Assembly: GCA_048886685.1 (NCBI GenBank)
Contig: JBHLKM010000016.1
Span: 45,082-109,081 of the forward strand
Direction: 5' to 3'
Source of the DNA: Candidatus Hodarchaeota archaeon
Lineage (GTDB): Archaea > Asgardarchaeota > Lokiarchaeia > Sigyniarchaeales > SOKP01
DNA: 64,000 nt
In this document: one piece after another, positions 5,137 to 28,501 of the stretch
How the letters are laid out: each line of letters opens with the position of its first letter
Position numbering within the stretch: the stretch's first letter is position 1
Program-made: the position numbers and the translations under genes
Notes under the pieces: generated by a model
Seen by the model: the letters and a program-made list of their open reading frames with translations, nothing else
Told to the model about the DNA's origin: nothing
Database searches by the model: none

Positions 5137-5510
5137 GTTGATATCATCTGTTAATAAGATTGTAATTACAACGTATAGAGTTATAATATATTCTATAATT
5201 ATGTTGAAAAGTATGTTTAGTAATGAATTTTGGATATTTATAGATGAAAAAGTTGAACTTCTATTGAAGTTTGAACTTAAGAAATTATTGTAACCAAATA
5301 AAAATCGACCTAATCGTTATTTTGGTAAAAAAAAATCTTCGTGAAAGATGCGTTTCACGTACTATTTACTACAAGCATTACCTCAAAACTCTTCTCATTG
5401 TCTTTTGATGAATGCATTTAATAAACTCATTCCGATAGTGTTCTTTTTCGTTTTATGATAGCAAAAAGAATTCCTCTGATTTCACCCATAATCTAACCTC
5501 ACGTGATTAA

Positions 5511-6720
5511 CTATTTTTGCTTTGAAAGGTATCTAATTTTTACGAGTAAATCTCGAAGTTCCATTTTATCATTGTCAGATGTTATGTATTTCTTTTTTAC
5601 TCCTTCTGAAAGCGGGATTGTTTCAATTTTATTTCCTTGGAGAGATACCATATTCCCAAATTTACCTTCTAAAACAAGTTTCATTGCTGCTAATCCAAAC
5701 CTTAATCCTAAAATCCTATCAAATGAATTAGGTGGTCCGGCACGCATGGTGTGACCAAGAACTACACTTCGACATTCGAAATCTACTCCATTTTTCTCAA
5801 ATTCTTGTTTTAAATCGTCTCTTAAGTTTAATTCTTCAACAATTATTTGGGACATATTCAATTTTACTAATAATGGATTACCAAATGTATCCTTAGGTAA
5901 TTTATCAATTGTTTCTTTAGATATGGTTTTAAAATCTCGGTTAAGAGATTCTAAATTCGGATAGGCTCCCTCTGATGTAGCAATTATATGATATTTATAG
6001 CCAGCATTAACTCTTTTTTTCAAAACATCAATAACATCTTTTTCTAAGTCAAATGGCGTTTCTGGGATTAATATTATATCTGCTCCAGCAGATATTCCGC
6101 TATACATTGTTAAAAAACCTGCATCTCTGCCCATTACTTCTACAACAAATACTCTTTGATGCGATCGAGCCGTGGTTGTAAGATTATCCATCGCGTTAGA
6201 GGCTAGTTGTGTCGAACTCCAGAAGCCAAACGTATAATGTGTTCCCTGCAGGTCATTATCAATAGTTTTTGGCACTCCTACTACTTTAGCATCAGCGAAT
6301 CTATACAAATTATCAGCCACTCCAAGAGTATCGTGTTCAGTTTAAAACAGAAGTTATTCTAAAACTCCACCGATAGCAATTAGAGCATCTATTCCTAATT
6401 CTTCAAACTTTTTGGTTAATTCTTTAGCTTTTTCCTCTTTTGCACTTACTCCCTTAAATGGATTCGTCCTACTTGTATATAGGATAGTCCCCCCCACAGT
6501 ATGTAGGTCATCATGTTCTGCTATATTAAGTGGAATTGTTTGGTTTTCCACAAATCCTTTCCATCCCTTAAGGATGCCAACACATTCAATCCCAGTATCA
6601 TAAGCTTTAAGCATGATTCCATAAAGTACGGAATTTAAACCGGGACAGTGTACGACAGTTAAGGAAACCTTTAGACATGGCTCCGCCGCCCGTGAGAATT
6701 CCAACTTTTTTAATTGCTAT
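5511..6720 (-). CDS. pfp: PfkA-family phosphofructokinase, probably PPi-dependent; three exons join(6720..6681,6649..6365,6334..5511), 382 aa
   Basis: Removing the 31-nt and 30-nt inserts restores GILTGGGDCPGLN and IGGDDTLG and gives one frame of 1149 nt. PKTIDND, EVMGR and LGH motifs are intact. GGDD plus PKTIDND is the PPi-type signature. Start appears to be ATA after a GAAGGTGA SD. Confidence 0.88.
6335..6364 (-). other. Putative BHB-like mRNA intron 2 of pfp (30 nt)
   Basis: UAUCG-GUGG-AG^U ... CUGA-AC^A-CGAUA: 9-bp inner stem, 5-bp outer stem, in-frame TAA; splits the Asp codon of GGDD. Confidence 0.8.
6650..6680 (-). other. Putative BHB mRNA intron 1 of pfp (31 nt)
   Basis: GCGG-AG^C ... 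UCGU-AC^A: 4-bp central helix, two 3-nt bulges, internal hairpin; splits the Asp codon of GGGD. Confidence 0.82.
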
Positions 6721-6854
6721 TTATAATCACCTTCATTAATTTTTATTTTTTTGACTAATTAATTAAGCCATTTTTGATTAAAAATGTTATTATGAAGTTA
6801 TATTTAAAAAGATATAAATGAAATTATCTTTCCATTCCTTTTTTTTTTAAAAAT

Positions 6855-7256
6855 CTATTCATTTTCATTATTTCCTAACCATTCTTTAAATGTTTTTTGA
6901 GGGATCATTTCCTGTATTGATATACCTGTCTGTTCTTTAAATTGCTTTTCTATCTCCCTCGTCCATAGCTTCTTATCTATCTGATCATTCAGCTTTATTA
7001 AGACTATACCTCCTCTTGCATCAAAAGCATCACGTTTAAATGAATCTCTTTGCCTTGTTTTGTATTTACTATGCCAATACATCTCCCAAAACTCATATAA
7101 TACCTCATATTTCTTTCCATTTATCAAAACACTGTTATATCCATCTACATGAGATCTCGGGTGAACTTTTTTATTCACTCCCTTAATTTTTATTTGATTT
7201 CCTACAATATTGCGTAAATGTGTATGATCAAATTTTACGCCAAATATTTTTTCCAA
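6855..7256 (-). CDS. Vsr/PD-(D/E)XK-like nuclease domain protein, possibly 5'-truncated
   Basis: VDGY...YEFWEMYWH...QRDSFKR...GIVLIKL pattern; begins immediately after the ZPR1 stop. Confidence 0.5.
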   Translation of the reverse strand: MEKIFGVKFDHTHLRNIVGNQIKIKGVNKKVHPRSHVDGYNSVLINGKKYEVLYEFWEMYWHSKYKTRQRDSFKRDAFDARGGIVLIKLNDQIDKKLWTREIEKQFKEQTGISIQEMIPQKTFKEWLGNNENE

Positions 7257-7264
7257 TAGTAGGT

Positions 7265-7834
7265 TTATTCTGATTCTTTTTTTTCAAATTTTTCAAATTT
7301 ATATTTTGATTTATCTTTTGGGATTATATAGCTCCCTCCTTCAGAATCAATAATTTTTAATGTAAATTCGAATTTTCCTTCTAATGCGTTTTTCAAATTA
7401 TTTAAAAGATCTTCAATCTCAGGTATTTCTGGGTCTCCTTCTTTGAGATTCTTCCTATATATTGAAACGGCACTTTCAAATCTATATAAAATACCTTCTA
7501 CATTAGTATAATAAAAATTGGCTCTGGGACCTGGTTCTACAATTAATTCGAGCTCAGGAATTTCTAATTTTCCTACAGGGGAACGGTAAATCTTTGATTT
7601 AAGGTCTTCTTCAGTTGTCACTTTCAAGGTCATAATTCCTGGATCCATATTTGTTGTTAAAGGAATTACATCATTTTTATGAAAGCTGCAAGTATCGCAT
7701 TCGAACTTCAATATGAGCATCTTGTCTCCATCAGGTAAATCATAGACATTCTTAATGATGTCTATTGTGCCATTTTCACATGAGGGACATTTAAATGAAT
7801 ATAAAATTTCACTATTTTTTTTCTCAGTAGACAT
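7265..7834 (-). CDS. zpr1: ZPR1 zinc-finger protein
   Basis: CPSC...CDTC, LEIPELELIVEPG, TNVEG, GGSYI. Confidence 0.9.
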   Translation of the reverse strand: MSTEKKNSEILYSFKCPSCENGTIDIIKNVYDLPDGDKMLILKFECDTCSFHKNDVIPLTTNMDPGIMTLKVTTEEDLKSKIYRSPVGKLEIPELELIVEPGPRANFYYTNVEGILYRFESAVSIYRKNLKEGDPEIPEIEDLLNNLKNALEGKFEFTLKIIDSEGGSYIIPKDKSKYKFEKFEKKESE

Positions 7835-27422: not shown

Positions 27423-27434
27423 TCTTAATAATAG

Positions 27435-27507
27435 TGGGCCAGGAGAGGATTGAACTCCCGACCTTCGCGGTGTAAACGCGACGTCATAACCACTAGACCA
27501 CTGGCCC
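27435..27507 (-). tRNA. tRNA-Val(TAC)
   Basis: Cloverleaf GGGCCAG/CTGGCCC; anticodon arm TCGCG-TTTACAC-CGCGA; GTTCAAT T-loop. Confidence 0.95.
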
Positions 27508-27522
27508 CAGATTTAATATAAG

Positions 27523-27605
27523 CGCAATCGGTGGGATTCGAACCCACGAATCCGTTGGACACTGGTTTAGCAGACCAGCGCTCTACCAGGCTAAGCGACG
27601 ATTGC
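27523..27605 (-). tRNA. tRNA-Ser(GCT)
   Basis: GCAATCG/CGATTGC acceptor stem; CTGGT-CTGCTAA-ACCAG; long variable arm. Confidence 0.95.
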
Positions 27606-28377: not shown

Positions 28378-28479
28378 GCAGATGTAGCCTAGTTGGTAAG
28401 ACGCTGGCCTTGAGTAGAACTTACAATCAAGTGAGCCAGTGCGCGTGAGCGCTCGGGGGTTCGAGTCCCTCCATCTGCG
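28378..28479 (+). tRNA. tRNA-Ser(TGA) with 19-nt canonical 37/38 intron (28415..28433)
   Basis: GCAGATG/CATCTGC; BHB CTTG-AG^T ... CAAG-TG^A; long variable arm. Confidence 0.92.
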
Positions 28480-28501
28480 CTTTGTAAACTAGTTTTTGAA
28501 A

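What the first reader, a model, noticed from the sequence alone, without database searches (positions are those of the whole stretch)
6650..6680. pfp intron 1: near-canonical BHB in the GGGD motif
mRNA sense: ACGGGCG-GCGG-AG^C-CAUGUCUAAAGGUUUCCUUAACUG-UCGU-AC^A-CUGUCCCG. The central helix GCGG/UCGU is fully paired (two G-U). Bulges are AGC and ACA, and there is an inner AAGG-UUU-CCUU hairpin. The outer exon helix is imperfect. At 31 nt, retention frameshifts the gene to an early TAA.
Basis: seen in the sequence. Interest (0 to 1): 0.85.

Follow-up and report, generated by a model that had tools for sequence, protein, structure and literature searches.

The report
Mobile tRNA-type intron in Asgard phosphofructokinase
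A 31-base insert shaped like an archaeal tRNA intron breaks the phosphofructokinase gene of a Loki-type Asgard archaeon inside a conserved motif, so the message very probably has to be cut and rejoined before the enzyme can be made (published for only one other archaeal coding gene, cbf5), and the insert seems to spread between species alongside a selfish DNA-cutting gene.

Summary
Confirmed. 6650-6680 (minus) is a 31-nt insert between bases 1 and 2 of the Asp codon of TGGGD in the genome's only PFK-A match. Removing it and a second 30-nt insert (6335-6364) gives a 382-aa enzyme; keeping it stops translation at 6609-6607. Thirty of 133 family genomes carry a 30-32-nt insert at this site, 81 have none, none has both. 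In 28 of 29 analysed the 4-bp central helix is complete (4% in shuffles), with compensatory changes. Synonymous exon bases forming the motif are nearly fixed only in insert-bearing alleles, and downstream dN/dS is about 0.1. EndA (two subunits) and RtcB are present. In this allele the BHB is not the lowest-energy fold, and no RNA run was listed, so splicing is inferred, not shown. The insert is scattered on the gene tree (16 changes). A LAGLIDADG homing-endonuclease gene or remnant lies just upstream in 8 of 29 insert-bearing alleles and in 0 of 40 intronless ones. This scan has reported the same pfk intron and many like it on other DNA; papers I could search confirm only cbf5.

The parts
6650..6680 (-). 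Intron 1, 31 nt, inserted in the G^AC Asp codon of TGGGD; frameshifting
6683..6686 (-). Central helix, exon strand (GCGG)
6652..6655 (-). Central helix, intron strand (UCGU)
6680..6682 (-). Bulge 1 (AG^C); predicted 5' cut between 6681 and 6680
   Evidence: AG fixed in all 29 insert-bearing alleles
6649..6651 (-). Bulge 2 (AC^A); predicted 3' cut between 6650 and 6649
6656..6679 (-). Inner intron stem with the AAGG-UUU-CCUU hairpin (6671-6661)
6687..6691 (-). Outer exon helix, 5' strand; pairs with 6648 and 6646-6643, with 6647 bulged
6681..6720 (-). pfp exon 1 (40 nt); probable non-AUG start ATA at 6720-6718, 6 nt after AGGTGA (6732-6727)
6365..6649 (-). pfp exon 2 (285 nt)
6335..6364 (-). 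Intron 2, 30 nt, in the G^AC codon of IGGDD; in-frame stop; 5-bp outer and 9-bp inner helices, 3 of 4 central pairs
5511..6334 (-). pfp exon 3 (824 nt with stop)
6855..7256 (-). 133-aa ORF inserted between ZPR1 and pfp; 76-78% identical to the C-terminus of a >=633-aa protein that abuts pfp in G136; probable remnant of a homing-endonuclease-like gene (weak family evidence)
7265..7834 (-). ZPR1-family gene, the usual upstream neighbour of pfp

Best explanation
6650-6680 is a tRNA-type (bulge-helix-bulge) intron in the mRNA of a working phosphofructokinase gene. The pre-mRNA folds so that exon bases -6 to -3 pair with intron bases -6 to -3. The two-subunit splicing endonuclease EndA cuts after the second base of each 3-nt bulge, and RtcB joins G to AC, rebuilding the Asp codon of TGGGD; intron 2 is removed the same way. 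SHOWN: the insert, its exact boundaries, the frameshift, conservation and covariation of the motif, purifying selection downstream, and the presence of EndA and RtcB. INFERRED: transcription, cleavage by EndA, ligation by RtcB. Secondary inference (about 0.55): the intron spreads at DNA level by gene conversion together with its flanking exon bases and the 5' leader, driven by a free-standing homing endonuclease inserted between ZPR1 and pfp, against which the intron protects the allele.
For: Only this register restores the orthologous junction, and 81 family genomes have the uninterrupted motif. 30 genomes in 5 genera carry a 30-32-nt insert at the same base; no genome has both states. Central helix complete in 28 of 29 vs 4.0% of shuffled introns. 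93% of cells paired vs 33-51% in slid controls; 6 pairs with two-sided changes, including a synonymous exon base against an intron base (C-G 23, U-A 3). Synonymous exon bases track the insert: third Gly GGA 26/26 vs 19/39, second Gly GGY 26/26 vs 14/39, Asp GAC 24/26 vs 5/39; synonymous identity away from the junction is the same in both classes. dN/dS downstream: median 0.097 with insert, 0.072 without. All 29 retained readings stop within 6-41 codons. EndA paralogues, one with a Tyr/His/Lys-like motif and one lacking the His, plus RtcB. Same phase in an Asp codon as the cbf5 intron (PMC2738675). Mobility: 16 changes on a tree built without the junctions, one clade rejected (p-AU 4e-117); an identical 31-mer in alleles with dS 1.2-1.4; extra DNA upstream in 12/29 vs 0/40 alleles (independent pairs 6-8 to 0, median p 0.03), LAGLIDADG gene or remnant in 8 of them.
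Against: No spliced RNA was seen for this gene. In this allele the BHB is 3.6 kcal/mol above the MFE and the central pairs have near-zero probability in the thermodynamic model, so it would need the enzyme to capture a minor fold. The covarying changes come from a few related intron subtypes, so they are fewer events than cells. A homology-free descriptor scan was not discriminating. This genome has no match to the LAGLIDADG gene at E<=1e-30; its upstream ORF is a different, truncated, weakly classified protein. 17 of 29 insert-bearing alleles have no upstream insertion.
Confidence: 0.87

Rival explanations
1. The insert is removed from the RNA at these boundaries, but by another activity (a different nuclease or ligase), the BHB shape being kept for that enzyme.
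For: The fold of this allele is weak and no cleavage was tested; which ligase acts is not shown.
Against: The geometry (4-bp helix, 3-nt bulges, cuts after base 2) is exactly the EndA rule and predicts the boundaries in all 29 alleles and at intron 2. EndA and RtcB are present.
Confidence: 0.04
2. Translational bypass or programmed frameshift: the ribosome skips the insert on an unspliced mRNA.
For: A hairpin and an early stop follow the site; bypassing is known elsewhere (own knowledge).
Against: The insert splits a codon. The triplet 31 nt after the last GGA is GUA, so take-off and landing codons do not match, and a hop would give His rather than Asp (read). Lengths of 30, 31 and 32 nt occur at the same site, which one frameshift rule cannot serve. 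The conserved pairing joins exon to the intron's far end, which a ribosome would have melted.
Confidence: 0.04
3. The gene is a pseudogene, or the insert is a selfish element tolerated because PFK is dispensable.
For: Two inserts, a non-AUG start and a truncated ORF upstream; gene callers return only fragments.
Against: dN/dS about 0.05-0.13 in insert-bearing pairs and no other lesion in 26 reconstructed genes. Whole subclades (genus g16, 4 of 4) keep it with compensatory change. It is the only match to the exon-3 query in this genome. The non-AUG starts recur in other genomes.
Confidence: 0.03
4. Assembly artefact, or excision at DNA level in part of the population.
For: The genome is a metagenome bin with 8.4% contamination.
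Against: The same insert site in 30 independent genomes with diverged sequences; no terminal repeats or recombinase sites at the boundaries; no genome holds both states.
Confidence: 0.02

Closest known systems
cbf5 pre-mRNA intron of Crenarchaeota (Watanabe 2002; Yokobori 2009, PMC2738675)
   Same: Short (16-44 bp there), BHB-like boundaries, inserted between bases 1 and 2 of a conserved Asp codon, patchy among relatives, no ORF, needs EndA.
   Different: Here a central-metabolism gene in Asgard archaea, two introns in one mRNA, no RNA proof yet, signs of lateral spread with flanking exon bases, and a neighbouring free-standing endonuclease gene.
Archaeal tRNA introns, including the many Asgard ones (bioRxiv 10.64898/2026.10.13.758758)
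   Same: Same BHB geometry and size range; EndA is widespread in Asgard genomes; repeated gains.
   Different: [quoted passage not shown] That preprint never mentions mRNA (0 occurrences) and found no general route of arrival.
HVO_1309 5' UTR intron of Haloferax volcanii (PMC7714728)
   Same: An mRNA-borne BHB intron cut by the splicing endonuclease.
   Different: That one is 46 nt, outside the coding sequence; this one breaks the reading frame.
Collaborative or trans homing of phage group I introns by free-standing endonucleases (PMC2988022)
   Same: An ORF-less intron in a conserved motif, a nearby free-standing homing endonuclease, and co-conversion of flanks.
   Different: The intron is a protein-spliced 31-mer in a cellular archaeal gene, not a ribozyme; the enzyme's target has not been shown.

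Membership tests
BHB (EndA-spliced) archaeal intron | 4-bp central helix between the exon end and the intron end | tested here: met
   4/4 pairs with two G.U here; complete in 28 of 29 orthologs vs 4% shuffled
BHB (EndA-spliced) archaeal intron | Two 3-nt bulges with the splice sites after base 2 | tested here: met
   Boundaries from intronless orthologs equal the predicted cuts
BHB (EndA-spliced) archaeal intron | Flanking helices h and h' | tested here: met
   Both present but each with a 1-nt bulge; 92-93% of cells paired
BHB (EndA-spliced) archaeal intron | The BHB is the fold adopted by this RNA | tested here: inconclusive
   3.6 kcal/mol above the MFE here; equal to the MFE in 4 orthologs, median gap 2.2
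BHB (EndA-spliced) archaeal intron | EndA and a ligase are encoded | tested here: met
   Two PF01974 genes and one RtcB
BHB (EndA-spliced) archaeal intron | Precise removal from RNA in vivo, and cleavage by EndA | not testable with these tools
   No RNA holder was listed; no biochemistry
cbf5-type coding-sequence intron | Interrupts a conserved codon of a gene under purifying selection | tested here: met
cbf5-type coding-sequence intron | Host gene is cbf5 of Crenarchaeota | tested here: not met
   Host is a PFK-A family gene; homologues are labelled Promethearchaeota/Lokiarchaeota
Group I or group II self-splicing intron | Ribozyme core of hundreds of bases | tested here: not met
   31 nt with one hairpin
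Collaborative homing pair | Free-standing endonuclease gene linked to the intron-bearing allele | tested here: inconclusive
   LAGLIDADG gene or remnant in 8/29 vs 0/40 alleles; in this genome only a truncated ORF of another, weakly classified type
Collaborative homing pair | The endonuclease cuts the intronless site and spares the intron-bearing one | not testable with these tools
   Needs a cleavage assay
PPi-dependent PFK (pfp) | Asp at position 104 (GGDD) and Lys at 124 (PKTIDND) | tested here: met
   Motifs read in the spliced frame; the rule is from my own knowledge. An intronless ortholog passes the NCBIfam PRK03202 cut-off and no PPi equivalog cut-off, so the donor is not settled

The most novel reading that the evidence does not exclude
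Loki-type Asgard archaea splice tiny tRNA-type introns out of core metabolic mRNAs, and this pfp intron is a mobile hitch-hiker: it is spread between species by a neighbouring free-standing homing endonuclease that cuts intronless alleles, while the host's tRNA-splicing enzymes make the insertion harmless. That would be a route by which endonuclease-spliced introns invade protein genes in the closest prokaryotic relatives of eukaryotes.
Probability: 0.45. Interest if true: 0.9.

Novelty: new variant of a known kind. Interest (0 to 1): 0.76.

Why it matters
Papers I could search confirm endonuclease splicing inside an archaeal coding sequence for cbf5 only. A glycolytic gene that needs two such events in Asgard archaea means mRNA splicing is part of ordinary gene expression in the lineage nearest to eukaryotes, and that such genes are being mis-annotated as fragments (database entries of 265-269 and 357 aa, and N-termini read through the intron). 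The link to a homing endonuclease offers a testable answer to how ORF-less BHB introns arrive and persist, a question the recent Asgard tRNA-intron preprint leaves open. A 50-nt substrate and two small proteins make the test cheap.

Tried and rejected
RNA evidence: no RNA holder listed for window 5400-6900, so no reads could be laid; this says nothing either way. A scan of JGI metagenome contigs for the joined junction with the insert-type exon bases gave 16 hits, all 54-74% GC, those with a PFK match being distant genes of 36-53% identity. Seven full-length PFK proteins from Logan, ENA or JGI contigs carried ordinary intronless junction codons, so they are not candidates for spliced copies; the closest relative P0001 lies on a contig that starts after the site. 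A homology-free genome scan for BHB plus frame restoration found 144 candidates against 112-142 in shifted controls, so it cannot count introns here. Single-sequence folding gives no signal for this allele. The tblastn used a wrongly framed query and is not used; one search is the valid paralogue search, and other PFK types were not searched. No copy of intron 1 elsewhere in the genome within 8 mismatches. G005 is masked at the site; L039 is a chance pattern match. The upstream ORF has no Pfam hit and only an E = 0.5 match of its G136 homologue to PDB 3r3p. Four literature searches found no paper on Asgard mRNA introns; most subscription papers are outside the library.

Full report
Observation. 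The window is C16:45082-109081 of a 4.4-Mb, about 31% GC genome whose PFK homologues are labelled Promethearchaeota/Lokiarchaeota. On the minus strand, 6680-6650 is 31 nt between ...GGC GGC GGA G and AC TGT CCC. Removing it and a 30-nt insert at 6364-6335 gives 1149 nt, 382 codons and one stop, with TGGGDCPG and IGGDDT rebuilt. The parts match PFK-A profiles, and an exon-3 query finds one match in the genome. Retained, the frame ends at TAA 6609-6607.

Chance. This allele alone is unremarkable: z = +0.5, the BHB-constrained fold is 3.6 kcal/mol above the MFE, and the central pairs have near-zero probability. A loose genome-wide descriptor did not beat controls. The case therefore rests on relatives.

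Relatives. A pattern search of 159 genomes of the class found an insert at this base in 30, all in the window's family, in 5 genera. The uninterrupted motif is in 81 of the 133 family genomes, never in the same genome. In the 29 loci analysed, lengths are 31 (22), 32 (6) and 30 (1, with an in-frame stop), and every retained reading stops within 41 codons. The central helix is complete in 28 of 29, against 4.0% when introns are shuffled. Over 15 named pairs, 93% of cells pair (33-51% when slid); six pairs change on both sides, among them a synonymous exon base with an intron base (C-G 23, U-A 3) and both pairs next to the bulge. These come from a few intron subtypes, so they count few events. 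In four orthologs the BHB is the MFE. Synonymous exon positions in the motif are nearly fixed only with the insert (GGA 26/26 vs 19/39; GGY 26/26 vs 14/39; GAC 24/26 vs 5/39), while synonymous identity elsewhere is equal between classes. Downstream dN/dS has median 0.097 with the insert and 0.072 without. Intron 2 behaves alike: 12 alleles with perfect 5-bp outer helices, long inner helices and the same exon signature, occurring with or without intron 1.

Mechanism. The geometry is the EndA rule (PMC2738675; preprint). The genome has two EndA genes, one with a Tyr/His/Lys-like motif and one lacking the His, which fits a two-subunit enzyme (residue roles from my own knowledge), and an RtcB. I infer cleavage after base 2 of each bulge and ligation to G-AC. 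Shown: insert, boundaries, selection on structure and protein, enzymes present. Not shown: the RNA event; no RNA run was listed. A ribosomal hop is unlikely because the insert splits a codon, take-off and landing triplets differ, and three lengths occur at one site.

Mobility. On a tree built without the junction codons (65 genes), intron 1 needs 16 changes, 13 forced by well-supported branches, and a single clade is rejected. Close sisters that differ in state differ strongly at the junction codons (12-62% synonymous identity vs 50-83% elsewhere), and one 31-mer is identical in alleles with dS above 1.2. This points to replacement of short DNA tracts rather than precise loss through a spliced copy; the direction (gain or loss) is not settled. 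Following a lead from e1-5562717, I examined the upstream region. ZPR1 abuts pfp in 40 of 40 intronless alleles, while 12 of 29 insert-bearing alleles have extra DNA there (independent pairs 6-8 to 0, median p 0.03). Eight of these hold a double-motif LAGLIDADG gene, intact (4), frameshifted (1) or as a C-terminal remnant (3), and its four best matches in the class all sit before an intron-bearing pfp. This genome has no match to that gene; it carries a 133-aa ORF 76-78% identical to the end of a >=633-aa protein that lies tail-to-tail with an intron-2-bearing pfp in G136. More distant members hit PHROG homing-endonuclease families, which is only a lead. The window's 5' leader resembles insert-bearing alleles of other genera more than its nearest kin. 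This fits collaborative homing (PMC2988022), but no target was tested.

Comparison and verdict. It works like the cbf5 intron, down to the phase in an Asp codon, and meets every BHB feature testable from sequence. It differs in host gene, lineage, number per mRNA and apparent mobility. Besides cbf5, papers list only the Haloferax 5' UTR intron. This scan has reported the same pfk intron and many others on other DNA, some with RNA support that I did not check. Verdict: real; EndA-type mRNA intron 0.87; new variant of a known kind; interest 0.76.

Noticed in passing
window 6335-6364 (-): Second BHB-type insert, 30 nt with an in-frame stop, in the IGGDD motif; present in 12 of 65 reconstructed alleles plus G136, independently of intron 1.
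   Followed up: yes
window 6718-6732 (-): The start position holds ATA behind AGGTGA. Orthologous positions show ATA in four more genomes, ATC, ATT, TTG, and ACG in two intronless ones, so near-cognate starts seem to be in use; the ATH forms occurred only in insert-bearing alleles.
   Followed up: partly
window 6855-7256 (-): Truncated nuclease-like ORF between ZPR1 and pfp, related to a >=633-aa zinc-finger-like protein abutting the 3' end of pfp in G136 (L148/L159).
   Followed up: partly
G000:C5:244014-244245: Orphan pfp fragment of about 230 nt (95% identical exon part) that keeps intron 2, with an intron identical to that of G008: a DNA-level copy, not a spliced one.
   Followed up: partly
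L045:254-1372, L047, L050, L060, L053: Free-standing double-motif LAGLIDADG genes directly upstream of intron-bearing pfp; related genes occur at other loci in about ten more genomes, some in frames above 1000 aa.
   Followed up: partly
L131:3941-4042 (G147): A second copy of the last 34 codons of pfp lies just after the gene.
   Followed up: no
window about 27434-27605 and 28378-28480: tRNA-Val, tRNA-Ser and a tRNA-Thr with a 19-nt intron; ARAGORN calls introns in many tRNAs of this genome.
   Followed up: no
P0080, P0090, P0112; 265-269-aa and 357-aa entries: Database proteins whose N-termini appear to be read through the intron or started after it: systematic mis-annotation of this gene.
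   Followed up: no
genera g12, g14, g19 (G050-G054, G056, G070): Neither the interrupted nor the uninterrupted pattern matched; the motif may differ, hold a longer insert or be missing.
   Followed up: no
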